Shown one piece after another: positions 3,701 through 19,937 of a DNA stretch of 64,000 nt (the stretch's first letter is position 1; every line of letters starts with the position of its first letter). Made by a program: the position numbers and the translations under genes. The notes under the pieces were generated by a model that did not search any database, was not told the DNA's origin, and saw only the letters and a list, made by a program, of their open reading frames with translations. Source of the stretch: a virus; the IMG/VR virus record IMGVR_UViG_3300045971_000163, positions 1 to 64,000 of that record; one strand, 5' to 3'.

Positions 3701-4024
3701 ATGGTAGAATTTACTGACGCAGCATGCAGCAAAGTGGCGGAGATTATGGCTGAAGAAGACAATCCCGCGAACAAACTGCGTGTTTTCGTGCAAGGTGGTG
3801 GTTGCTCTGGCTTCCAATACGGGTTTACGTTTGATGAAGAACAGAACGAAGATGACTTTACTATCGAGAAAAATGGAGTAACCGTTTTGGTCGACGCTAT
3901 GTCCATGCAATATTTGCAGGGTGCAACGATCAACTACAAAGAAGATTTGATGGGCGCTCAATTTATAATTGAAAATCCCAACTCGGTGTCTACTTGTGGT
4001 TGTGGTTCTTCCTTCAGTATGTGA
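3701..4024 (+). CDS. erpA: A-type Fe-S insertion protein ErpA
   Basis: [22 protein letters not shown]...VDAMSMQYL...TCGCGSSF. Confidence 0.9.
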
Positions 4025-4084
4025 CATTAACTGCTAACATTATACTGCTTAGGTATTCTATAAATATTATTTATAGGAGAGAAT

Positions 4085-4651
4085 ATGTTTTTACGAGATA
4101 CACAAGAATCATCAACATTTATTAGAAAATACAAATCAGGAAAAGAAGTTGAATGCAAATCAGTGAGAACTACTCATTATTTTAAATGTGATAAATGCGG
4201 TGTAGAATTTTCTAGGCCAAAAAATGGATATACTAATTTACATACTGGCAGTCATTTTTGTACTGAATGTTATAGCAAGTCTGAAATGCAAACATTGTCA
4301 ACGCTGTCACGTAAGCGTGAATTTGAGCAAAATGGAGAAAAAGTAAAAATAGATCGTGGATATAAAGAAATCTATGTCGGCAATGAGTACCCATATCGAA
4401 ATACATTGTGGGTAAGAGAGCATATTGCAGTTATAGAACGGCACATAGGAAAAAGAATACCCGACGGATTTGTAGTGCATCATATTGACGGAAATAAAGC
4501 AAACAACAAGTTATCTAACTTGTTGTTATGTTCCGTGGCTAACCATAATAAATGTCACGGAAAAATAGAAAGGCTTGTTTTTGAATTATACGAAAAAGGT
4601 CTAGTAGATTTTGATAAAGAAAAAATGGAATATTTTTTAAAACAGGTATAA
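4085..4651 (+). CDS. HNH endonuclease with N-terminal zinc finger (free-standing homing endonuclease)
   Basis: CDKC...FCTEC; EHIAVIE...VVHHIDGNKANNKLSNL...HNKCH; TATAAATA at 4059-4066. Confidence 0.85.
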   Translation: MFLRDTQESSTFIRKYKSGKEVECKSVRTTHYFKCDKCGVEFSRPKNGYTNLHTGSHFCTECYSKSEMQTLSTLSRKREFEQNGEKVKIDRGYKEIYVGNEYPYRNTLWVREHIAVIERHIGKRIPDGFVVHHIDGNKANNKLSNLLLCSVANHNKCHGKIERLVFELYEKGLVDFDKEKMEYFLKQV

Positions 4652-4676
4652 ATATTGATTTTGGTTAAAAAAGTTC

Positions 4677-4705
4677 TTGCTATCTATATACTTTGCATAT
4701 ATAAT
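4677..4705 (+). promoter_or_regulatory. sigma70-type promoter for the ncRNA array and DUF2828 gene
   Basis: TTGCTA (4677-4682), 17 bp, TATAAT (4700-4705); a TATAAATA also lies at 4647-4654. Confidence 0.75.
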
Positions 4706-4715
4706 AGCGTGATAG

Positions 4716-4835
4716 AGAATAGGTACAGCAGTTTAAAAACAGCACTAGTCGGATAATCGCTTTAGGACTTGTCCTTTAGACTTACTGACAAACTTGAACA
4801 CCGAACCAAGTAAAAAGGGCGGAAAAACTATTCTG
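4716..4835 (+). ncRNA. structured ncRNA array unit 1 (Y-RNA-like candidate)
   Basis: Terminal stem AGAATAG (4716-4722)/CTATTCT (4828-4834); GTACAGCA follows the 5' strand. Confidence 0.65.
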
Positions 4836-4853
4836 GTAGATTTTGAAATTATA

Positions 4854-5018
4854 AGGATCGGTTCAGCAACACCATAATACTATGGGAGGGAACTACTGCG
4901 CGGTAATTGTGGAGCCTTTCGGGGCTTTGAAGCAGTTATCGACACGCTGAAAGGCAAGTATAACCTCAAGGTGAGTTTGGATTTTCTCACTTGAAACAAA
5001 AAGTACAAAACGATCCTG
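4854..5018 (+). ncRNA. structured ncRNA array unit 2
   Basis: Stem AGGATCG (4854-4860)/CGATCCT (5011-5017); GTTCAGCAA; internal AGCCT-TTCG-GGGCT and GCT-GAAA-GGC hairpins. Confidence 0.7.
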
Positions 5019-5034
5019 TTGTTTTTGTTTTATA

Positions 5035-5273
5035 AGAGTGGGTACAGCAACTCAAAAATACAGCCAATGCTATAGAATGTGGTCGGAGGACTTTATACAG
5101 TGGAAACATTGTACGCAGACGGAATAGCTAGACCGGCTAAGGACCGGGTATGTGCCACGCAGAATACAATGTGGATAGGGCATCGCCGAATCGTTTGCTA
5201 TGGTTGAGTTACAAAGCCTTAAATGGATAACGTCGGACAACCAGACAATAAAAATCGCGTAACAACCACTCTG
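5035..5273 (+). ncRNA. structured ncRNA array unit 3
   Basis: Stem AGAGTGG (5035-5041)/CCACTCT (5266-5272); GTACAGCAA; internal TACAGTG-GAAA-CATTGTA hairpin. Confidence 0.7.
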
Positions 5274-5283
5274 TTATTTTGTT

Positions 5284-5508
5284 AGGATGAATTCAGCAAA
5301 CTACCACTCTTGCCCGTAAGGGCGAATAAGGCTGCAAGTAATCGTTCGCGGTGAAAGCTAATGTACATAGAATATGTAATAGTGCTCATAGAATGTGAGA
5401 TACGCTTCCAACTAAATTTGGAATAGTTGTCAGTTAGAATAATTGGATAGGGTCGGGGCATTTTAAAAGGGCCGACCAGAATAATAAATTACTGTGCCGA
5501 TCATCCTG
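5284..5508 (+). ncRNA. structured ncRNA array unit 4
   Basis: Stem AGGATGA (5284-5290)/TCATCCT (5501-5507); ATTCAGCAA; internal GCCC-GTAA-GGGC, TACATA-GAA-TATGTA, TTCCAA..TTGGAA and GGTCGG..CCGACC helices. Confidence 0.7.
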
Positions 5509-5523
5509 TTGTATTTGATAATA

Positions 5524-5601
5524 AGGTTAAATTCAGCAATTTAAAACTGCCTCAATTGGGGCTTCAATGAAAGCAGCTATGCTCTAAATAGTGTTAACCT
5601 G
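5524..5601 (+). ncRNA. structured ncRNA array unit 5 (shortest; abuts the RBS of the downstream gene)
   Basis: Stem AGGTTAA (5524-5530)/TTAACCT (5594-5600); ATTCAGCAA. Confidence 0.65.
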
Positions 5602-5614
5602 AAAGGAAATTGAA

Positions 5615-6091
5615 ATGAACGCATTTGTAAATGCCATTGGTGAACAAATTCAACGTACCGAAAACGGTATGAAGGCTCGTGCATCCACAGCTAACGCCTG
5701 TGTTGACCTTTTCTTCGCTATCGGTGCAAGCCGTGGCAAGAACATCATCCCTCAATTCACTGCGGCATTCGTAGAGAACTCTGACCTTGCCTTGCGCATC
5801 GTTGCATGGGCTCGTGACGTTCGTGGTGGTGCGGGTGAACGTGAAATCTTCCGCTCGGTGCTTGCGCACCTTGAAACCGCTAACCCAGATGCTGCTAAGG
5901 CTCTGGTTAAGAAGGTACCTGAATTGGGCCGCTTTGACGATGGTCACTGTCTGAAAACAAAAGAACTCAAGACAGTTTGGTTTACAATACTAGGTGATAT
6001 TTTACGTGCTGGGCAAAATGCTAAAGAATTGCTGCCACAGATTGATTTGATGACTGAGGCTCAGTGCAAGAAAGTTCTAGAATCTCTTTGA
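5615..6091 (+). CDS. DUF2828/TROVE (Ro60)-like protein, N-terminal fragment
   Basis: RTENGMKA..ST..ACVDLFF..GASRG...WARDVRGGAGEREIFR...PELGRFDD; GAAAGGA RBS. Confidence 0.8.
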   Translation: MNAFVNAIGEQIQRTENGMKARASTANACVDLFFAIGASRGKNIIPQFTAAFVENSDLALRIVAWARDVRGGAGEREIFRSVLAHLETANPDAAKALVKKVPELGRFDDGHCLKTKELKTVWFTILGDILRAGQNAKELLPQIDLMTEAQCKKVLESL

Positions 6092-6731
6092 GTTTCTTAC
6101 AGTTATCACCGTGCCACCGAGTAAATAAACCGGAGCCAACATTTTCATTACAATGAGGACACGATTTCTTAATTGAACTCGGGTTATTTGATACAAAATT
6201 ACTAATAGTACCATTAAGTTTCTTAGTCTCTCGGCACTTATCAATAACTGCTGGAGATTTAGGATCTGTACCCCTAGCAACTCTGGTGTTCAATTGCTTT
6301 TCGATACTTGATTGAGTTCTAATGTTTGTGCCGTTTTCAATTCTAGTTTTATTATATTTTTCTGTACTGGCATTGGTCCAATTTTGAATAGATCCATTAG
6401 CGGTATTAGTTTTTCTTGTATTTGATCTCTTTTTAATTATTTCTTCTGTTGGTATAACACCTTGACCAGATTCTAGTATCATATTTGCCCAAGCTGGATC
6501 TTTAACGACATTCCATAAATTGCTATAATATAGACCACGTTCTCGTAAAGATTCTAATGTTTCACATTCTTCTATAACTTCAGTAATATGTTCAAATCCA
6601 TGCACTCTCAAATGTCTAAGCCAATGAAGCCCAGAACCAGTATATTTACTATGATCTTCCTGAGTAGTCATACCCAGATATTTTAACCCAGTTTTAGAAT
6701 GTGTCTTGACGTATAATTTATAAATACCCAT
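6021..6731 (-). CDS. GIY-YIG-family homing endonuclease inserted antisense within the DUF2828 gene
   Basis: MGIYKLYVKTHSKTGLKYLGMT...YTGSG; C-terminal CPHC...RWHGDNCK; AAAGGAG RBS before the ATG at 6731. Confidence 0.85.
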   Translation of the reverse strand: MGIYKLYVKTHSKTGLKYLGMTTQEDHSKYTGSGLHWLRHLRVHGFEHITEVIEECETLESLRERGLYYSNLWNVVKDPAWANMILESGQGVIPTEEIIKKRSNTRKTNTANGSIQNWTNASTEKYNKTRIENGTNIRTQSSIEKQLNTRVARGTDPKSPAVIDKCRETKKLNGTISNFVSNNPSSIKKSCPHCNENVGSGLFTRWHGDNCKKLKEILELSCTEPQSSNQSVAAIL

Positions 6732-6793
6732 GCTGGTTGCTCCTTTAAGTAATGCAATTAGAGTTTGTGGGTACGACCAATACCGCGACAAAC
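6732..6793 (-). promoter_or_regulatory. structured 5' leader RNA motif of homing endonuclease (copy 1)
   Basis: GTTTGT-CGC-GGTA-TTGGTCG-TACC-C-ACAAAC-TCTAA...CCAGC-ATG; co-varies with the copy at 19881-19937. Confidence 0.65.
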
Positions 6794-6864
6794 ATTTTTC
6801 ACCAAAATAATTTTATTTTCAATTCTTTTAGTATATAATAGTATTTATCCAAAGAGGACTTATC

Positions 6865-7950
6865 ATGTCATTTAAACAAGAACTTCGTAACAAATTAAAC
6901 CAACAATTGATCACTGCACAATCTGTCGCAAAATGGATGCCTCGTGAAAAGTCGGCAAAATCCACTGTGGCAAGAGAAATTCGTGAGTTTTTTGGCATGT
7001 CTCCAAAGTTCTATCGCCGTTCTATTGCTGAAATGTCGGATACAGTAGAGCAGAAGATGTGTGCCAGACTTTGGGATAACATCAATTATAGTCAAGTTCC
7101 ATCCGTAGCTCATTCACGCTACAAAAAAGCGTTTGGAAAGAATGGCACCACTTACGCTGAATACGTAACCAAGTTGGTTAAGGGTGATGACCCAACTGTG
7201 AAGATCAATGCTTCGGCAATCTTCCCACATGATGTGTTGAAGGGTCGTATCAACGGCTACGACATGAAGTGGGACAAGCAAGAGCTTGATGTGATCGAAG
7301 CTCAATGGGCTGCTCTGCCAAACTACATTGGTGACGCTTCGGTGTTGCCACTAGTTGACGTGTCTGGCTCGATGACTTGTACTGCTGGGCAAAAGGGTAC
7401 TACCACTTGTTTGGAAATCGCAGTGTCTTTGGGCCTGTACTTTGCAGACAAGAACAAGGGTGCCTTTAAGGATTGTATGCTGACTTTCAGCGACAAGCCA
7501 CAGTTGGTGGAGCTGAAGGGCAACATCAACGAGAAGATCAACCAAATGGTTACCACTGATTGGGGCATGAGCACTAACCTGCACTCGGCATTCAACGCGA
7601 TTCTGGCTACGGCTGTGAATCAAAAGGTGCCAGCGGCAGATATGCCAGGTACTGTGATCATCTTCTCAGACATGCAATTCAATGCCTGTGTGCATAACGA
7701 TGATTCAGCGATGGAGATGATTGAACGCAAGTATGCGGATGCAGGTTACACTGTGCCTAATGTTGTGTTCTGGAACTTGAACGCGGCATCTAACGTGCCA
7801 GTGAAGTTCGACAAGACAGGCGCTGCACTGGTATCTGGTTTCAGCCCAGCGGTTGCTACGGCAATCTTGTCTGGTAACATGGACGACTTCACCCCAGAAG
7901 CGATCATGTTGAAGGCGGTTATGGCGGACAGATATGCACTATGCGATTAA
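6865..7950 (+). CDS. DUF2828/TROVE (Ro60)-like protein, C-terminal fragment with vWA domain
   Basis: AKWMPREK...EQKMC..W..INYSQVPSVA; MIDAS DVSGSM; FSDMQF; VFWNL; VSGFSP; own AAGAGG RBS. Confidence 0.85.
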   Translation: MSFKQELRNKLNQQLITAQSVAKWMPREKSAKSTVAREIREFFGMSPKFYRRSIAEMSDTVEQKMCARLWDNINYSQVPSVAHSRYKKAFGKNGTTYAEYVTKLVKGDDPTVKINASAIFPHDVLKGRINGYDMKWDKQELDVIEAQWAALPNYIGDASVLPLVDVSGSMTCTAGQKGTTTCLEIAVSLGLYFADKNKGAFKDCMLTFSDKPQLVELKGNINEKINQMVTTDWGMSTNLHSAFNAILATAVNQKVPAADMPGTVIIFSDMQFNACVHNDDSAMEMIERKYADAGYTVPNVVFWNLNAASNVPVKFDKTGAALVSGFSPAVATAILSGNMDDFTPEAIMLKAVMADRYALCD

Positions 7951-8501
7951 GTGAGATTGCATCTGGTAGCTTGGCTAATCCCAATATACCAGATTTTTTG
8001 AATCCCGTTCATGTCTGTGACATGGATGGGTATCAAATCATGCACGATACTTGGAAAGGATATCAAGTTTTTGGTATTCTTGATGAGAATAACTTACCTA
8101 AAACATATATCATAACTTCACCAGTCAATGAGTCAACGTTGAAGTTTGTTGAAATTCACACTGTACCAGCTCATGCTGGCCAAAATTTAGGTGCAATTTT
8201 GCTATATGCACTAAAAGCAAAGCTTGGAATTAAATTGTTGTTAAGCAAAGATGAAGTTGTCAGTATCCCCGCCCGCTCATTAATAATGAAGCTAATTAAA
8301 AATAATAGACTTGCTGCAACTAAAGTAAGTGGTGAACCGCTGTCAGCAGATGAAGTTATCAATATTATGAATACAATGGGCGATTCTAATCATGAGCTAA
8401 TTCTCGAAAGTCAAGTAAGCAATCAACCTAAGTTTAACAAAGACTTAGTGTTATCTGAAAGATGGTACTTACGTAACTCAAATTCTGAAAATTATGACTA
8501 A
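7941..8501 (+). CDS. hypothetical protein, possible GNAT-like fold
   Basis: IHTVPAHAGQNLGAILL resembles acetyl-CoA-binding motif A; overlaps the upstream gene. Confidence 0.5.
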   Translation: MRLSEIASGSLANPNIPDFLNPVHVCDMDGYQIMHDTWKGYQVFGILDENNLPKTYIITSPVNESTLKFVEIHTVPAHAGQNLGAILLYALKAKLGIKLLLSKDEVVSIPARSLIMKLIKNNRLAATKVSGEPLSADEVINIMNTMGDSNHELILESQVSNQPKFNKDLVLSERWYLRNSNSENYD

Positions 8502-8530
8502 AAATAATTAACCATTATTTTTGATCCAAG

Positions 8531-8698
8531 ATGAAATTACTGTTTAAGTGCCTTGCTTGTAATAAATATTTCACCAGTCATGTTGAGCCACCTCAACGAC
8601 TGGCAAATTGTCCAACTTGTCGAACTGATTGCGCACCTCAGCCGCACCGTAAACATGAAACAATCCAAACTAAACTCCCTAAAAGAAGCATGCACTAA
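8531..8698 (+). CDS. small zinc-ribbon protein (55 aa), not in ORF track
   Basis: MKLLFKCLACNKYF...ANCPTCRTDC: two CxxC motifs. Confidence 0.55.
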   Translation: MKLLFKCLACNKYFTSHVEPPQRLANCPTCRTDCAPQPHRKHETIQTKLPKRSMH

Positions 8699-8900
8699 CA
8701 TTGCCATTGGCTATGTCGTTGGCATGTTAACCCAACTTATCCTGTATCCGCTTTACGGCATACACATTGCATTTACTACAAATTTAGCATTATCGTTTTG
8801 GTTTACGATTGTTGCTATTGCTCGCTCTTACTTTGTGCGCAGATATTACAATTATCAGTTGCATAAAAACAACAGTGTCGCGCAGCAATTAACTACTTAA
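8655..8900 (+). CDS. small membrane protein (MxQSKxxSLxEA type, DUF7220-like)
   Basis: QSKLNSLKEACTNIAIGY...ARSYFVRRYYN; two hydrophobic helices. Confidence 0.75.
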   Translation: MKQSKLNSLKEACTNIAIGYVVGMLTQLILYPLYGIHIAFTTNLALSFWFTIVAIARSYFVRRYYNYQLHKNNSVAQQLTT

Positions 8901-8966
8901 TCATTAAACTTGATAATGTGTAAAAATAATGTTATTGTTAAATACAATATCACAATGGAGATGTAA

Positions 8967-9131
8967 ATGGACAAAATCACAGAATTAGATCTTAAAAAAA
9001 ATTCTAAGCCGTTAACTAATTCAGATCTGCTGGCAGAATTATCCAATGTTGAAAAGTTAGAAGCAATACTTACGAGACTTCAGATTTTAACTAAGAAAAC
9101 TAACCCAGAATTTAATAATGAAAATAAATGA
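8967..9131 (+). CDS. small hypothetical protein (54 aa)
   Basis: GGAG RBS; MDKITELDLKKNSKPLTNSDLLAELSNVEKLEAILTRL... Confidence 0.55.
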   Translation: MDKITELDLKKNSKPLTNSDLLAELSNVEKLEAILTRLQILTKKTNPEFNNENK

Positions 9132-9405
9132 AGTAATTATTAACCCTGCCCAATCAATTTATGAACGATTAGCAGATAAATCTAATAATTTAGTTGCAAA
9201 CTATGAAAAGTTTTATAAAGACACTCAGTCACTGACACAAAATTTTACTATACCACCTAAATTTATATATCCCAGAGATACAATTTATGAGATTATATCG
9301 GAAATTAAATCAGCAGAAAAGTCACTTAGTGATATGAGAACGTCGTTGCCGCAACTATCTAAACTTTTGTCTAAACTTCTTGATTATTATGATCAGCAGT
9401 ATTAG
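9118..9405 (+). CDS. hypothetical protein
   Basis: 95-aa AT-rich ORF starting MKINEVII. Confidence 0.6.
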   Translation: MKINEVIINPAQSIYERLADKSNNLVANYEKFYKDTQSLTQNFTIPPKFIYPRDTIYEIISEIKSAEKSLSDMRTSLPQLSKLLSKLLDYYDQQY

Positions 9406-9451
9406 AAATTACGTTGCATAAAAACAACACTATTTCACAGCAAATCACCGC

Positions 9452-9480
9452 TTGACTTTGACCCAAACTTACGCTATAAT
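9452..9480 (+). promoter_or_regulatory. sigma70-type early promoter
   Basis: TTGACT, 17 bp, TATAAT. Confidence 0.85.
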
Positions 9481-9512
9481 GGTGGCAAGAGTAGAAATAA
9501 GGACAAAATATC

Positions 9513-9914
9513 ATGGAATTCGTTGTAGAAGCCAAGAGCCATTTGCGTAAAAAGTTCATCACTGCATTGCTGCCGTCAATGATCAAGCAACTTGGACTCG
9601 AAAAAAGCAAGAAGTCCGTGCTGATCATGGTAGACGAGGTGGAAGCGTTAGGCGTCACAGTCCCGTTTGAAAGTTTTGACTGCTATCTGATTGTCATTAA
9701 GCCACAGCGTATGGTTAGCATTGGTGCTACTCTTGCACACGAAATGGTGCACGTAAAACAAATGGCGCAGGGGAAATTGCGCAAAGTAACCAAGACCCAC
9801 ACAATGTGGGCAGGCAAGCGTTACACAAAAACAACGAAGTATCTCGATCAACCGTGGGAACAACAGGCATTCGCAATGCAAGAGCTGGTATTCCGTCGCG
9901 CTTTGGAAAGTTAA
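9513..9914 (+). CDS. HEXXH zinc metallopeptidase-like protein
   Basis: TLAHEMVHVKQ...PWEQQAF. Confidence 0.8.
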   Translation: MEFVVEAKSHLRKKFITALLPSMIKQLGLEKSKKSVLIMVDEVEALGVTVPFESFDCYLIVIKPQRMVSIGATLAHEMVHVKQMAQGKLRKVTKTHTMWAGKRYTKTTKYLDQPWEQQAFAMQELVFRRALES

Positions 9915-9916
9915 AC

Positions 9917-10228
9917 ATGACAACACTCGCAGATCTCAACAAATTTCAGCCAGGGCAAGGTCACTGGCCTTCCACTGCACACAATCACAGTGAAATGAAC
10001 GCCATGTTTGACATCTTGGACGCAGAGTTCAATAGCAGTGAGAAAATTTACACGGCATTTCATCGCCTGCAATGTTGCCACAGTAAGCCGCGGGGCGACG
10101 CAATGCGAGTCTTCAAAGAAGAAGCTGGCAAAGGTCTCCGGCGCAATGATTTCTTTTACAGCGAGCACCAAGTTGAATTGCTCGCGCATGCACTGTTGAG
10201 CATGTGGATTGTGAATGAGAACCGCTAA
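9917..10228 (+). CDS. hypothetical protein
   Basis: ORF track 9806..10228; likely start MTTLAD at 9917. Confidence 0.6.
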   Translation: MTTLADLNKFQPGQGHWPSTAHNHSEMNAMFDILDAEFNSSEKIYTAFHRLQCCHSKPRGDAMRVFKEEAGKGLRRNDFFYSEHQVELLAHALLSMWIVNENR

Positions 10229-17994: not shown

Positions 17995-19251
17995 ATGGTT
18001 ACATTTAACGAATACGTTATGCACGCCGTCGGCACTTCAACGCAAAAGAAGATGAAGGCTGATCCGTTGCCAACGGACCCAGAGATTGATCGTCGTACAC
18101 AAGAAAAGCTAATTACAGCCCGCATTGGTTTGCTGCTTAAGGCGCCGTTTTTTGGCAACCTTGCAACCCGCCTTATACTTAAAAACGCTGACGAGTGGCT
18201 TACCACTATTGCCACTGACGGGCGTTATTTTTACTACAATTCCCGCTTTGTTGACAGCATGAGCATCAAGCAGACTGAGTTTGGCTTTGGCCACGAAGTG
18301 TTGCACAATGTTTATGACCACATGGGCCGTTGCGGTGACCGTGACAAACGCCTGTTTAACATTGCCGCTGACTACTGCGTCAACCAGGATTTGCTGGACC
18401 AACGCATCGGCGAACGTATTACAGTTATCCAAATTTTAGTTGATGCCAAGTACAAGGGCATGTCAGCTGAAGAAGTGTACGACGATTTGTATGCTAACGC
18501 CGAGAAAATTAACATTGACGATCTGCTTAACAAGATGCTGGACGAGCATTTGGACGACAGCGATGAGAACGACGATAACCGTCCTAAATACAGCGAAGAA
18601 GAACGCCGCCAAATCCGCGACGAGATTAAAGAAGCAATGTTGAGTGCTGCTCAAACGTGCGGCGCTGGTAACTTGCCAGGTGGTGTGCGGCGTATGCTTG
18701 CTGACATGACAGAGCCAAAGATGAACTGGCGTGAACTGTTGCAGCAACAAATTGAAAGCACAGTCAAAGCAGACTACACATTCATGAAACCGTCGCGCCG
18801 CAACTGGCACATGGATGCAATTTTCCCAGGGCAAAGCAATGCAGACATGATTGACATCTGCATCAGCGTTGACTTGTCGGGTTCCATCAGCGATACACAG
18901 TGCAAGGATTTCTTTAGCGAGATCCACGGCATTATGCAGATGTATGATGCGTTTAAGATTACTGTGTGGACGTTCGACACTGCGGTTTACAATCCCGCAA
19001 CGTTTACGCAAGATAACATGGACGAGATTTTGACATACGTGCCTGAAGGTGGCGGTGGCACAACGTTTGAAGCTAACTGGGAATTCATGAAGGAAAACGA
19101 GATTGAACCTAAAAAGTTCATCATGTTTACTGACGGCTACCCGTGCGGTTCTTGGGGTGACGAAAATTACTGTGATACTGTATTCATTATTCACGGGTCA
19201 ACGACGATTGAACCCCCATTCGGTACATTCGCGTATTATGATGCGGCGTAA
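17995..19251 (+). CDS. DUF2201-type metallopeptidase/vWA protein (partner of the AAA ATPase); start uncertain
   Basis: TIATDG, HEVLH, NIAADY, DLSGSI (MIDAS), GGGGT, FTDGY. Confidence 0.88.
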   Translation: MVTFNEYVMHAVGTSTQKKMKADPLPTDPEIDRRTQEKLITARIGLLLKAPFFGNLATRLILKNADEWLTTIATDGRYFYYNSRFVDSMSIKQTEFGFGHEVLHNVYDHMGRCGDRDKRLFNIAADYCVNQDLLDQRIGERITVIQILVDAKYKGMSAEEVYDDLYANAEKINIDDLLNKMLDEHLDDSDENDDNRPKYSEEERRQIRDEIKEAMLSAAQTCGAGNLPGGVRRMLADMTEPKMNWRELLQQQIESTVKADYTFMKPSRRNWHMDAIFPGQSNADMIDICISVDLSGSISDTQCKDFFSEIHGIMQMYDAFKITVWTFDTAVYNPATFTQDNMDEILTYVPEGGGGTTFEANWEFMKENEIEPKKFIMFTDGYPCGSWGDENYCDTVFIIHGSTTIEPPFGTFAYYDAA

Positions 19252-19880
19252 GTGAGTTTGCCGGGCACACACCCAGCCGGGCATTCTTTAACTAAAAAGT
19301 TTTCAACTCCATTGTTATAGAAATGTTTTCCAGAGTTATTATCCTGACCAGGTCGGCCTTTACGCTTTAGGCTCCATTGATCCTTTAGCCACTGAGGTCG
19401 AGTTTTACCAATCTTGCTTATGCCAATCTTATGCTTATGATCATCGCTAAGAACTCTTGGTCCATAGACCGCGTTGGCTGCTTTTACCCCAGCAGAGATA
19501 GCCAGTTTATCCTTAGGAGATCGTGGAGACCCAAACATTGGATTATTGCTGCCAGTCATTGACTCAGAACAAAGTTTTCGAATCTGCTCAAATTTGCGTC
19601 CTGAAATTTTGTACCTCTGTTGATTGCTACTTGCTTGACACATTTTAGACAATGCTGATATCATTTTTCTTCGAAGTTTACCTTCAGTCATTTTAGGTAA
19701 AAGCCAATGGCATATAAAGTGTTCTCTTGCAGTTAGAGAAATTAAATTTTGATTAGTATTATTTCCGCCAAGGGATTTAGGTATAATATGGTGCCGCTCA
19801 ACATACCCGATAATTGGGCGTGATTTTGCCGCTGATATTATGTTATAATACCAGTTAGAATATTTGTTTTGTAAATACAT
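19236..19880 (-). CDS. HNH/NUMOD3 homing endonuclease
   Basis: YVERHHIIPKSLGG.N...NLISLTAREHFICHWLL; GSNNPMFG; FYNNG. Confidence 0.85.
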   Translation of the reverse strand: MYLQNKYSNWYYNIISAAKSRPIIGYVERHHIIPKSLGGNNTNQNLISLTAREHFICHWLLPKMTEGKLRRKMISALSKMCQASSNQQRYKISGRKFEQIRKLCSESMTGSNNPMFGSPRSPKDKLAISAGVKAANAVYGPRVLSDDHKHKIGISKIGKTRPQWLKDQWSLKRKGRPGQDNNSGKHFYNNGVENFLVKECPAGCVPGKLTYAAS

Positions 19881-19937
19881 TGCTGATTGTCCTTCACGAC
19901 GTTAGAGTAGTTGGATATTTCCAGTATCGCGAACTAC
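19881..19937 (-). promoter_or_regulatory. structured 5' leader RNA motif of homing endonuclease (copy 2)
   Basis: GTAGTT-CGC-GATA-CTGGAAA-TATC-C-AACTAC-TCTAA...TCAGCA-ATG; begins 5 nt after a late promoter ATAAATA (19949-19943). Confidence 0.65.

What the first reader, a model, noticed from the sequence alone, without database searches (positions are those of the whole stretch)
5615..7950. DUF2828/TROVE-like gene split into two separately translated ORFs by an antisense homing endonuclease, with no intron or intein
The N-part ends ...LGDILRAG plus QNAKELLPQIDLMTEAQCKKVLESL*. The C-part begins MSFKQELRNKLNQQLIT plus AQSVAKWMPRE and has its own RBS (AAGAGG) and a TATAAT at 6834-6839. From my recollection of the family, LGD.LR is normally followed within a few residues by AKW.PR, so both halves appear to have gained amphipathic extensions. 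The endonuclease 3' end overlaps the N-part by 71 nt. Both halves have intact frames. Established precedent: phage Aeh1 nrdA is split by mobE and reassembles after translation. Inference: the extensions form a helical clasp that reconstitutes the ring.
Basis: partly seen in the sequence, partly recalled or inferred. Interest (0 to 1): 0.7.

Follow-up and report, generated by a model that had tools for sequence, protein, structure and literature searches.

The report
Endonuclease-split phage Ro60-like gene
A phage gene for a ring-shaped, Ro60-like RNA-binding protein is cut into two separately translated genes by a selfish homing-endonuclease cassette that also supplies a conserved short peptide on each broken end. 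This is a known kind of "gene in pieces", seen here in about sixty related lineages.

Summary
ORF 5615-6091 (+, 158 aa) and ORF 6865-7950 (+, 361 aa) are the two halves of a DUF2828/DUF7788 (Ro60-like TROVE + vWA) protein that is one 470-aa chain in relatives. A GIY-YIG-type endonuclease gene lies between them on the opposite strand (6021-6731) and overlaps the N-half by 71 nt. No intron or intein signal was found.

- At least 59 clusters of N-halves carry the same about 25-aa acidic tail. Split C-halves carry the same about 21-aa basic leader.
- All nine distinct split loci I could read have an endonuclease in the gap, of three different kinds. One lies in sense orientation.
- In this window, the outer parts of the gene are about 95% identical in DNA to an unsplit allele. 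The central stretch, about 5900-7160, is only 51-71% identical, so the cassette was imported by recombination.
- Split alleles are scattered over the gene tree.

AlphaFold2 predicts helical extensions. The break maps to about residue 140 of Ro60, inside the ring. That the tail and leader reassemble the ring is inferred, not shown.

The closest precedent is Aeh1 nrdA-a/mobE/nrdA-b. This scan has already found the same split Ro60-like gene on other DNA. It is a new member of a known kind.

The parts
5615..6091 (+). N-half of the Ro60-like (DUF2828) gene, 158 aa. Residues 1 to about 133 are homologous to the N-terminus of unsplit relatives.
   Evidence: ORF. Pfam DUF2828 E=2e-11. PHROG 850 positions 1-139. 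83-89% identity to the N-termini of unsplit relatives. AlphaFold2 model is an alpha-solenoid, mean pLDDT 86.6.
6014..6088 (+). C-terminal tail of the N-half (aa 134-158), absent from unsplit homologues. Consensus: [AG]Q.A[KE]..L..[IL][DE].[ML][ST][ED]..C...L.
   Evidence: Conserved in 62 aligned split N-halves: L140 95%, E148 92%, C151 98%, L155 95%. Conserved residues use different synonymous codons in 8 loci. Predicted as a continuation of helix 116-145 plus helix 148-157, pLDDT about 90. Acidic: mean net charge -2.4.
6021..6731 (-). Free-standing homing-endonuclease gene, 236 aa: a GIY-YIG-like N-domain, NUMOD3-like repeats and a C-terminal CxxC...H...C zinc finger. Its last 23 codons are the antisense of the tail.
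   Evidence: ORF and AAGGAG ribosome-binding site. PHROG endonuclease hits on aa 171-233. Relatives at 33-41% identity, two of them with Pfam NUMOD3. Nearest ESM Atlas clusters are SegE_GIY-YIG/GIY-YIG/NUMOD3, score 0.96, TM up to 0.93. No Pfam hit for this protein itself.
6758..6788 (-). Conserved 31-nt element in the 5' leader of the endonuclease gene. Its function is unknown.
   Evidence: An exact pattern match also lies upstream of the antisense HNH gene at 19902-19932, and in locus L139 upstream of its endonuclease. None is expected by chance. The predicted fold is not unusually stable (z=0.61).
6834..6857 (+). -10-like TATAAT (6834-6839) and Shine-Dalgarno AAAGAGG (6851-6857) serving the C-half.
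   Evidence: Read from the sequence. TATAAT lies 26-45 nt upstream of the C-half ATG in 5 of 7 antisense-type loci, and L058 has a full TTGACA-17-TATAAT. The generic promoter scan does not list it.
6865..7950 (+). C-half of the Ro60-like gene, 361 aa: the rest of the helical ring plus a vWA domain with the MIDAS motif DxSxS.
   Evidence: Pfam DUF7788 E=1e-46 and DUF2828 profile positions 269-399. AlphaFold2 mean pLDDT 88.7. Matches phage and cellular Ro60 structures: 9kop Z 15.9, 9l5y Z 14.7, and 1yvr, 2nvo and 9nen at Z 11.5-14, with model residues 1-358 on chain residues 140-492.
6865..6927 (+). N-terminal leader of the C-half (aa 1-21), absent from unsplit homologues. Consensus: M..[AS]K..L[KR].KLN..L......[AS] before KW.PR.
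   Evidence: Conserved in 16 split C-halves. Basic: mean net charge +2.25. Predicted helix 3-17, pLDDT about 70.
5900..7160 (.). Mosaic tract: the cassette (tail, endonuclease, promoter, leader) plus about 110 nt and about 235 nt of flanking gene sequence of foreign origin.
   Evidence: DNA identity to the unsplit allele L002 is 91-98% at 5625-5835 and about 95% on average from 7169 on, but 51-71% across 5895-7139. At protein level, C-part aa 22-100 is closer to the distant split locus L139 (70%) than the rest of the C-part is (56%).

Best explanation
This is a 'gene in pieces'. A phage Ro60-like gene (DUF2828 helical ring plus vWA domain) is fractured inside its helical ring, at about residue 133 of about 470, by a mobile cassette.

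Reading along the + strand, the cassette contains:
1. About 25 codons of acidic helical tail and a stop codon, which end the N-half.
2. A free-standing GIY-YIG-type homing-endonuclease gene on the opposite strand, with its own conserved 5' leader.
3. A -10-like promoter element, a ribosome-binding site and an ATG.
4. About 21 codons of basic helical leader, which start the C-half.

Shown:
- The two halves are separate, intact ORFs.
- The extensions are specific to split alleles and are under protein-level selection.
- The cassette recurs in many lineages with exchangeable nuclease modules.
- In this window the cassette sits in a recombination tract of foreign origin.

Inferred:
- The endonuclease cuts cassette-free alleles during co-infection, and repair copies the whole cassette in (homing with co-conversion).
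- The two polypeptides associate after translation into a Ro60-like ring.
- The tail and leader act as adaptors, through helix packing and opposite charge, that compensate for the break. [quoted passage not shown]
For: Split and identity:
- ORFs. PHROG 850 breaks exactly at profile position 139. Pfam DUF2828 and DUF7788.
- Unsplit 470-474-aa relatives reach 87-89% identity.
- The C-half model matches Ro60 structures from chain residue about 140 onward.

No splicing:
- No Rfam family at E<=1 and no intein family.
- The conserved tail residues are encoded by different synonymous codons. Leu140 uses CTG, TTA, CTC and CTA. Ser147 uses TCN and AGC.

Recurrence:
- At least 59 of the 120 listed N-half-sized clusters end with the tail motif.
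- Pairwise identity in the tail (0.44) equals that of the neighbouring body segments.
- Nine distinct loci (window, L058, L128/L137, L133, L134, L139, L140, L154) all have N-half, endonuclease, C-half in that order.
- The nucleases are of three kinds that share a C-terminal zinc finger. L154's kind hits Pfam SegE_GIY-YIG, and L133's carries an HNH-like motif that I identified by eye.

Mobility:
- The mosaic DNA identity profile.
- P0125 has the same N-body (90%) but a different tail version (44%).
- The split state needs 14 changes for 17 split taxa on a 99-taxon tree, against a shuffled mean of 16.4.

Adaptor idea:
- Helices are predicted.
- Tails are acidic (95% carry a net negative charge) and leaders are basic. 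The Aeh1 tails are also oppositely charged, and the Aeh1 tails are essential (PMC3045599).

Own expression signals.
Against: - No complex could be modelled, because only single chains can be folded here. Association of the halves, and any role of the tail and leader in it, are untested.
- In Aeh1 the tails were not needed for the a/b heterodimer, only for the higher assembly, so 'clasp' may be the wrong picture.
- The leader is weakly amphipathic. It superposes on the part of phage Ro60 that holds the RNA-contacting Lys141 and Lys142, so it may serve RNA binding instead.
- The endonuclease of this window has no Pfam hit. Its activity and target site are unknown.
- The tree test uses a biased sample and a recombining gene.
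- DNA of the closest split relatives (P0002 and P0123) could not be fetched, so no dN/dS was computed.
Confidence: 0.78

Rival explanations
1. The insertion killed the gene. The two ORFs are decaying remnants, and the 'extensions' are only read-through into inserted DNA up to the first stop codon.
For: In this window the tail is the antisense of the endonuclease 3' end. On its own, that looks like accidental read-through.
Against: Both halves are intact in all nine distinct loci and in about 60 protein clusters spanning 38-87% identity. Invariant core residues, including the MIDAS motif DxSxS, are kept. The tail is as conserved as the body and shows synonymous codon turnover. It is also conserved in loci where only 14-30 nt overlap the endonuclease.
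Confidence: 0.03
2. The intervening DNA is removed by RNA splicing (a group I or II intron with an antisense ORF) or by protein splicing (a split intein), giving one polypeptide.
For: Endonuclease genes often live in introns and inteins. 'Fractured genes' with split inteins around an endonuclease are known (PMC2677866, listed).
Against: No intron family at E<=1 with permissive filters. The ORF is antisense. The sequences an intron would remove are conserved as amino acids. The C-half has its own ribosome-binding site and ATG, and in most loci a -10 element. The extensions are 25 and 21 aa, against about 100 and 35 aa for split inteins. There is no Cys/Ser/Thr at the junctions and no intein Pfam hit.
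Confidence: 0.03
3. The halves do assemble, but the tail and leader are not a clasp between them. The basic leader rebuilds part of the RNA-binding surface. The acidic tail caps the exposed solenoid end or mediates dimerisation or partner binding.
For: The leader superposes from about residue 140 of phage Ro60, where Lys141 and Lys142 contact the Y-like RNA. In Aeh1 the tails were dispensable for the heterodimer. The tail carries a 98%-conserved cysteine of unknown role. The N-half folds confidently on its own with the tail packed (pLDDT about 90).
Against: Both extensions always occur together, and only in split alleles. Their charges are complementary.
Confidence: 0.15
4. The tail and leader are not foreign DNA. 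They are diverged duplicates of the helices either side of the break, so the fragments overlap after a small tandem duplication at the insertion site.
For: tblastn extends the N-half alignment through the tail into the next segment of some unsplit genes. It also extends the C-half alignment through the leader into the preceding helix. Both ends carry a GQ.A.K-like copy of the junction NGLAAK. The leader model sits where a native ring helix sits.
Against: Profile-profile comparison finds no significant match of the tail or leader to the adjacent segments. The tail's best match has P=0.013, to residues 80-101. The leader's best match has P=0.43.
Confidence: 0.25

Closest known systems
Aeromonas phage Aeh1 nrdA-a / mobE / nrdA-b, 'genes in pieces' (Crona et al. 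2011, PMC3045599; the 2007 Friedrich et al. paper is cited from memory)
   Same: A free-standing homing-endonuclease gene splits a conserved phage gene into two separately translated ORFs. No RNA or protein splicing is involved. Each fragment carries a short terminal tail that is absent from unsplit homologues, and the tails are oppositely charged. In Aeh1 the tails are essential for activity.
   Different: - The host gene is different: a Ro60-like RNA-binding ring, not ribonucleotide reductase.
- The endonuclease here is GIY-YIG-type and antisense, whereas mobE is HNH-family.
- Aeh1 is a single phage. Here the same tail and leader recur in about 60 lineages with three kinds of nuclease, and the cassette can be seen as an imported tract.
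- Tail function is untested here.
Phage T4 topoisomerase genes 39 and 60, split by mobA (as discussed in PMC3045599; review PMC2988022)
   Same: An endonuclease-associated split of one protein into two genes, with tail-like extensions on the fragments.
   Different: T4 gene 60 also needs ribosomal bypassing of a 50-nt gap. There is no sign of that here, and the host protein is different.
Ro60 of Thermus phage phiLo (PDB 9KOP and 9L5Y; PMC12135203), and cellular Ro60/Rsr (1YVP, 1YVR, 2NVO, 9NEN)
   Same: The fold of the host protein. The C-half model superposes on residues about 140-492 of phiRo60 (Z 14.7-15.9) and on the same part of Xenopus, human and Deinococcus Ro60, including the vWA/MIDAS domain. 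phiRo60 has Y-like RNAs encoded upstream.
   Different: Those proteins are single chains. Sequence identity is only 13-18%. Pfam files this protein under DUF2828/DUF7788, not TROVE. RNA binding is untested here.
'Fractured genes' with split inteins flanking an endonuclease gene (Dassa et al. 2009, PMC2677866)
   Same: The layout is gene half, endonuclease gene, gene half. It was also found mainly in environmental phage-like DNA.
   Different: Those halves carry split-intein halves and are joined by protein trans-splicing. Here the extensions are far too short and have no intein motifs.

Membership tests
Genes in pieces made by a free-standing homing endonuclease (Aeh1 nrdA/mobE type) | The host gene is a single ORF in close relatives and the break is clean | tested here: met
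   Unsplit 470-474-aa relatives reach 87-89% identity. PHROG 850 profile: positions 1-139 in the N-half and 139-475 in the C-half.
Genes in pieces made by a free-standing homing endonuclease (Aeh1 nrdA/mobE type) | The intervening ORF is a homing endonuclease that is not housed in an intron or intein | tested here: met
   No Rfam family at E<=1 and no intein family. Nearest ESM Atlas clusters are GIY-YIG/SegE/NUMOD3. NUMOD3 is found in relatives. Every split locus has an endonuclease in the gap.
Genes in pieces made by a free-standing homing endonuclease (Aeh1 nrdA/mobE type) | Terminal tails on both fragments that are absent from unsplit homologues | tested here: met
   Alignments. Only 2 of about 129 unsplit representatives have any large insertion at the junction.
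Genes in pieces made by a free-standing homing endonuclease (Aeh1 nrdA/mobE type) | The fragments are translated separately, associate, and need the tails | not testable with these tools
   Only indirect evidence: own ribosome-binding site and ATG, purifying selection, helical predictions and opposite charges.
Genes in pieces made by a free-standing homing endonuclease (Aeh1 nrdA/mobE type) | The endonuclease promotes spread of itself and its flanks (homing or co-conversion) | tested here: inconclusive
   Mosaic tract about 5900-7160. Split state scattered on the tree. These are footprints of recombination, not proof of endonuclease-driven homing.
Ro60 / TROVE-vWA RNA-binding ring proteins | Helical (HEAT-like) ring followed by a vWA domain with a MIDAS motif | tested here: met
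   C-half model against 9kop, 9l5y, 2nvo, 1yvp and 9nen: Foldseek E 1e-6 to 1e-5, VIA Z 11.5-15.9. DxSxS is invariant. The N-half alone gives only generic alpha-solenoid matches, with 2nvo at Z 6.5.
Ro60 / TROVE-vWA RNA-binding ring proteins | Sequence membership of the TROVE family | tested here: inconclusive
   Pfam gives DUF2828 and DUF7788, not TROVE. A profile search against PDB sequences gives only weak hits to TROVE proteins (E=0.007) and Ro60 (E=0.12).
Ro60 / TROVE-vWA RNA-binding ring proteins | Binds Y or Y-like RNA | not testable with these tools
   No Rfam or tRNA hit in or near the locus. The upstream ORF-free region was not analysed here.
GIY-YIG homing endonucleases | GIY...YIG catalytic domain recognised by family models | tested here: inconclusive
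   The motif GIYKLYV-(10)-KYLG and conserved W..H, E and N positions are visible. There is no Pfam hit for the window protein or its closest relatives and no PDB sequence hit. ESM Atlas features score 0.96, and structure gives TM 0.79-0.93, to SegE_GIY-YIG/GIY-YIG clusters.
Group I or group II intron | Conserved catalytic RNA core; the removed sequence is not constrained as protein | tested here: not met
   No Rfam match at E<=1. The tail and leader are conserved at the amino-acid level with synonymous changes.
Split intein ('fractured gene') | N-intein of about 100 aa and C-intein of about 35 aa, with splicing-block residues at the junctions | tested here: not met
   The extensions are 25 and 21 aa. 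There is no intein or Hint family hit. No Cys/Ser/Thr follows the junctions.

The most novel reading that the evidence does not exclude
The tail, endonuclease, promoter and leader form one self-contained 'split-and-rescue' module that spreads by homing among Ro60-like genes of many uncultured phages. The adaptor peptides and the expression signals for the downstream half travel with the element and have stayed conserved. Meanwhile the nuclease module has been exchanged several times: two GIY-YIG types and an HNH type here, and a LAGLIDADG type in another note of this scan. This would be the first family-scale natural evidence for the idea, proposed from the single Aeh1 case, that a mobile endonuclease carries its own antidote to gene fragmentation.
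Probability: 0.55. Interest if true: 0.65.

Novelty: new member of a known kind. Interest (0 to 1): 0.5.

Why it matters
Crona et al. (2011) proposed from one phage that tails acquired with an endonuclease insertion may be a general way to neutralise gene fragmentation without splicing. They noted that such tails would be hard to recognise.

This locus belongs to a large natural series that could test the idea:
- The same break point, and the same acidic tail and basic leader, occur in about 60 sequence clusters.
- The nucleases are interchangeable.
- Unsplit alleles about 95% identical outside the cassette are available as controls.

The series gives conserved positions to mutate, including a 98%-conserved cysteine. 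It offers natural 'before and after' allele pairs for homing assays. It also shows that a Ro60-type ring can be broken inside the ring, which is relevant to how Ro60 rings load RNA.

I found no paper that mentions DUF2828 together with phage.

Tried and rejected
- Megablast of the locus against 50,697 phage records found no match. Cultured-phage relatives are all below 60% protein identity, and the ones I checked are unsplit.
The contigs of the closest split relatives (P0002 and P0123, 86-87% identity) could not be fetched, so no dN/dS was computed. I used codon tables across eight distant loci instead.
- The metagenome scan with the N-half returned mostly unsplit genes and added only one new split lineage, L154/L155.
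- I considered that the tail and leader are diverged duplicates of the flanking helices, because tblastn extended through them. hhalign gave no support, so this is kept only as a minor rival explanation about origin.
- Foldseek and VIA-align on the N-half alone gave only generic helical-repeat matches.
- A profile of the endonuclease family against PDB sequences gave no hit. Pfam gave no hit for the window's endonuclease.
- The predicted fold of the endonuclease 5' leader was not more stable than shuffles.
- ARAGORN found no tRNA or tmRNA in the window.
- The gene's neighbours are not shared with the near-identical unsplit alleles L002, L003 and L142. The 'same backbone' argument therefore holds for the gene, not for the phage genomes.
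Full report
**1. What is there**

The window is the first 64 kb of a 104-kb IMG/VR virus record. CheckV rates the record about 29% complete, so it is probably part of a very large phage.

The finding covers three ORFs:
- 5615-6091 (+), 158 aa.
- 6021-6731 (-), 236 aa, counted from the ATG behind AAGGAG. The ORF listing extends it to a TTG at 6791.
- 6865-7950 (+), 361 aa.

The minus-strand ORF overlaps the first ORF tail to tail by 71 nt. AAAGAGG lies 7 nt before the ATG at 6865, and TATAAT lies at 6834-6839.

**2. One gene in two pieces**

Pfam finds DUF2828 in both plus-strand ORFs: profile positions 1-81 in the first and 269-399 in the second. It also finds DUF7788/vWA in the second. PHROG 850 ('RNA-binding protein') matches ORF1 residues 1-133 to profile positions 1-139 and ORF2 residues 14-358 to positions 139-475.

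A search of 5.8 billion proteins found unsplit relatives of 470-474 aa at up to 87% identity. Their sequence runs ...LGDALR-NQNGL-AAKWTPR... straight through the break. In about 129 diverse unsplit representatives, the spacing from the GRxDD motif to KWxPR is 27-36 residues in nearly all. The 25 residues after LGDILR in ORF1 and the 21 residues before AKWMPR in ORF2 are therefore extra.

**3. Not an intron, not an intein**

- A permissive Rfam scan of 4000-10000 gave nothing at E<=1.
- The intervening ORF is antisense.
- No intein family is hit. The extensions are too short for split-intein halves and lack junction nucleophiles.
- Most tellingly, the extensions are conserved as protein. In eight loci, conserved tail residues are written with different synonymous codons. 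Leu140 uses CTG, TTA, CTC and CTA. Ser147 uses TCA, TCT, TCG and AGC. Cys151 uses TGC and TGT.

**4. The split form is a widespread, conserved architecture**

Searching with the N-half in its own length class returned 257 proteins. Of the 120 listed, at least 59 clusters (at 90% identity) end 0-22 residues after the tail motif. The rest are fragments of unsplit genes cut by contig ends.

In an alignment of 62 split N-halves (38-86% identical to the window's), several tail positions are highly conserved: A136 87%, L140 95%, D144 85%, E148 92%, C151 98% and L155 95%. Mean pairwise identity in the tail is 0.44, the same as in body segments 81-133. Split-size C-halves (355-365 aa) share the leader M..[AS]K..L[KR].KLN..L...KW.PR.

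I could read DNA for nine distinct split loci: the window, L058 (identical to L059-L061), L128/L137, L133, L134, L139, L140 and L154/L155. All have N-half with tail, then an endonuclease ORF, then C-half with leader.
- The endonuclease is antisense in all but L134. There it is in sense orientation and overlaps both neighbours, as in translational coupling.
- Three kinds of nuclease occupy the gap:
  - Type A resembles the window's (window, L134, L139; 34-40% identical).
  - Type B is SegE-like GIY-YIG (L058, L128/L137, L140, L154). L154 hits Pfam SegE_GIY-YIG at E=9e-6.
  - The L133 type carries an HNH-like motif, which I identified by eye.
- All share a C-terminal CxxC...H...C finger.
- The window's and L058's enzymes are barely alignable (22% identity, E=0.11).

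**5. The endonuclease**

The window's protein has no Pfam hit, and its family profile finds nothing in PDB sequences.
- It does show GIYKLYV-(10)-KYLG and conserved W..H, E and N positions.
- Two relatives carry NUMOD3 (E=2e-8).
- PHROGs labels its C-terminal part 'endonuclease'.
- The nearest ESM Atlas clusters to its first 100 residues are SegE_GIY-YIG, GIY-YIG and NUMOD3 families, by features (0.96) and by structure (TM 0.79-0.93).

I call it GIY-YIG-type, but formal membership is inconclusive.

**6. The cassette was imported**

I aligned the DNA to the unsplit allele L002. The window is 91-98% identical over 5625-5835 and about 95% on average (75-100% per 60-nt window) from 7169 onward. 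It is only 51-71% identical across 5895-7139, wherever the two can be aligned at all.

Protein-level comparisons agree:
- N-half residues 1-105 are 96% identical to L002, but residues 106-133 are only 64% identical.
- C-half residues 22-100 are relatively closer to the distant split locus L139 (70%, against 56% for the rest of the C-half). They share its EKS.K insertion and FYRRS motif.
- The split protein P0125 has the same N-body (90%) but a different tail version (44%).

On a tree built from the C-half outside the tract (99 taxa, 17 of them split), the split state needs 14 changes. Shuffled labels need 16.4 on average. Split alleles are therefore scattered, not one clade. The sample is biased and the gene recombines, so this result is indicative only.

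The neighbours of the gene differ between the window and L002, L003 and L142. The comparison is therefore between alleles of a gene, not between phage backbones.

These are the footprints expected of homing with co-conversion. Endonuclease-driven spread itself is inferred.

**7. Expression signals travel with the cassette**

TATAAT lies 26-45 nt upstream of the C-half ATG in 5 of 7 antisense-type loci. L058 has a full TTGACA-17-TATAAT. The generic promoter scan of the window was not above chance.

A 31-nt element lies in the endonuclease's 5' leader (6758-6788). It recurs upstream of a second antisense endonuclease in the window (19902-19932) and upstream of L139's enzyme, although the two GIY-type proteins are under 40% identical.

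**8. Structure**

N-half with tail, AlphaFold2 using 62 sequences:
- Mean pLDDT 86.6.
- An alpha-solenoid whose last body helix runs on without a break through the junction (residues 116-145).
- A turn at M146-T147, then a short helix (148-157). The tail has pLDDT of about 90.

C-half, AlphaFold2 using 140 sequences:
- Mean pLDDT 88.7.
- The leader is a helix (residues 3-17) with pLDDT of about 70.

The C-half superposes on Ro60 structures:
- Thermus phage phiLo Ro60: 9kop Z 15.9 and 9l5y Z 14.7, with model residues 1-358 on chain residues 140-492.
- Xenopus and human Ro60 from chain residue 145.
- Deinococcus Rsr.

The break therefore lies inside the helical ring at about residue 140, not at the ring/vWA boundary. 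The N-half alone matches only generic helical repeats, with Rsr at Z 6.5.

Tails are acidic (mean net charge -2.4; 95% are negative). Leaders are basic (mean +2.25).

**9. How it most likely works**

Shown:
- Two intact, separately startable ORFs.
- Extensions specific to split alleles and under purifying selection.
- A recurrent cassette sitting in a recombination tract.

Inferred:
- The halves associate after translation into a Ro60-like ring.
- The tail and leader compensate for the break.

The model is Aeh1 NrdA-a/NrdA-b. There, tails that arose with the mobE insertion are essential and oppositely charged. However, they are needed for higher-order assembly rather than for the a/b heterodimer (PMC3045599).

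One alternative I cannot exclude is that the basic leader rebuilds an RNA-contact surface. Lys141 and Lys142 of phiRo60 contact the Y-like RNA (PMC12135203), and the leader superposes on that region.

**10. Origin of the extensions**

tblastn extended the alignments through the tail and leader into the neighbouring helices of some unsplit genes. Both ends also keep a GQ.A.K-like copy of the junction. This suggested an overlap duplication. Profile-profile comparison gave no support (tail P=0.013, to another helix pair; leader P=0.43).

Two unusual unsplit representatives, P0256 and P0271, have 20-70 extra residues at the junction, parts of which resemble the tail and leader. They may be re-fusions after loss of the endonuclease. 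I did not follow this up.

**11. Comparison and novelty**

This is the same kind of event as Aeh1 nrdA/mobE and T4 gene 39/60 with mobA.
- New here: the host gene (a phage Ro60-like ring), the antisense GIY-type enzyme, and above all the scale. About 60 lineages share one tail and leader pair with interchangeable nucleases, and near-identical unsplit alleles exist for comparison.
- I found no paper containing both 'DUF2828' and 'phage'. The phiRo60 paper does not mention an endonuclease and uses the word 'split' only once, in a passage not shown.
- Other windows of this scan have already reported the same split Ro60-like gene on other DNA, with HNH, GIY-YIG and LAGLIDADG enzymes. Those notes agree with this reading but are not independent evidence.

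Verdict: real, and a new member of a known kind. Interest is moderate (0.5).

No multimer prediction was available.

Noticed in passing
window 6758-6788 (-) and 19902-19932 (-); L139:6402-6432 (-): A conserved 31-nt element (TCGCGRTAYTGG...TAYCCA...ACTCTAA) lies in the 5' leader of both antisense endonuclease genes of the window and of L139's enzyme. A small stem co-varies (GGTA/TACC against GATA/TATC). None is expected by chance. The predicted fold is not unusually stable. It could be a shared regulatory site for homing-endonuclease genes.
   Followed up: partly
window 19236-19880 (-): A second antisense free-standing endonuclease (HNH motif ERHHIIP...N...H, 214 aa) sits between plus-strand genes and overlaps the 3' end of the upstream gene by 16 nt. 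This is the same layout as at the Ro60-like gene.
   Followed up: no
window 4085-4651 (+): An HNH endonuclease (Pfam HNH_3, E=5e-12), 188 aa, lies about 1 kb upstream of the split gene. This genome region is rich in homing-endonuclease genes.
   Followed up: no
window 4716-5601: About 0.9 kb with no convincing ORF lies directly upstream of the Ro60-like gene. Rfam (E<=1) and ARAGORN find nothing there. Thermus phage phiLo Ro60 has Y-like RNAs in the same position (PMC12135203).
   Followed up: partly
L134:8568-10912: The one split locus in which the endonuclease is in sense orientation. Its ATG lies 8 nt before the N-half stop, and its stop overlaps the C-half start, as if the three ORFs were translationally coupled.
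   Followed up: partly
L133:4400-5086 (-): The gap holds an ORF with an HNH-like motif (EGHHIVP) in place of the GIY-YIG domain, but with the same C-terminal CPHC...H...C finger as the GIY-type enzymes. This looks like a swap of catalytic module on a shared DNA-binding module.
   Followed up: no
L142:3249-4001, L149:5413-6234, L168:2991-3566: Unsplit alleles often have a type-A-like GIY endonuclease gene immediately beside the Ro60-like gene, upstream or abutting its stop. This recalls mobE, which is intergenic in most T-even phages and intragenic only in Aeh1.
   Followed up: no
proteins P0256 (498 aa) and P0271 (541 aa): These are rare unsplit family members with 20-70 extra residues exactly at the break point. 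Parts of the extra sequence resemble the tail and leader. P0271 also has a GIY..-like stretch. They may be re-fusions after endonuclease decay.
   Followed up: partly
window 6940-6957 (C-half aa 27-32): A 4-residue insertion (EKSAKS in place of KG) just after KWMPR is shared by a subset of split alleles (window, P0002, P0012, L058, L134, L139) and is absent from the close unsplit alleles. It is a marker of the imported tract.
   Followed up: partly
window 7941-8501 (+): A 186-aa ORF overlaps the C-half stop by 10 nt. It has no Pfam or PHROG hit.
   Followed up: no
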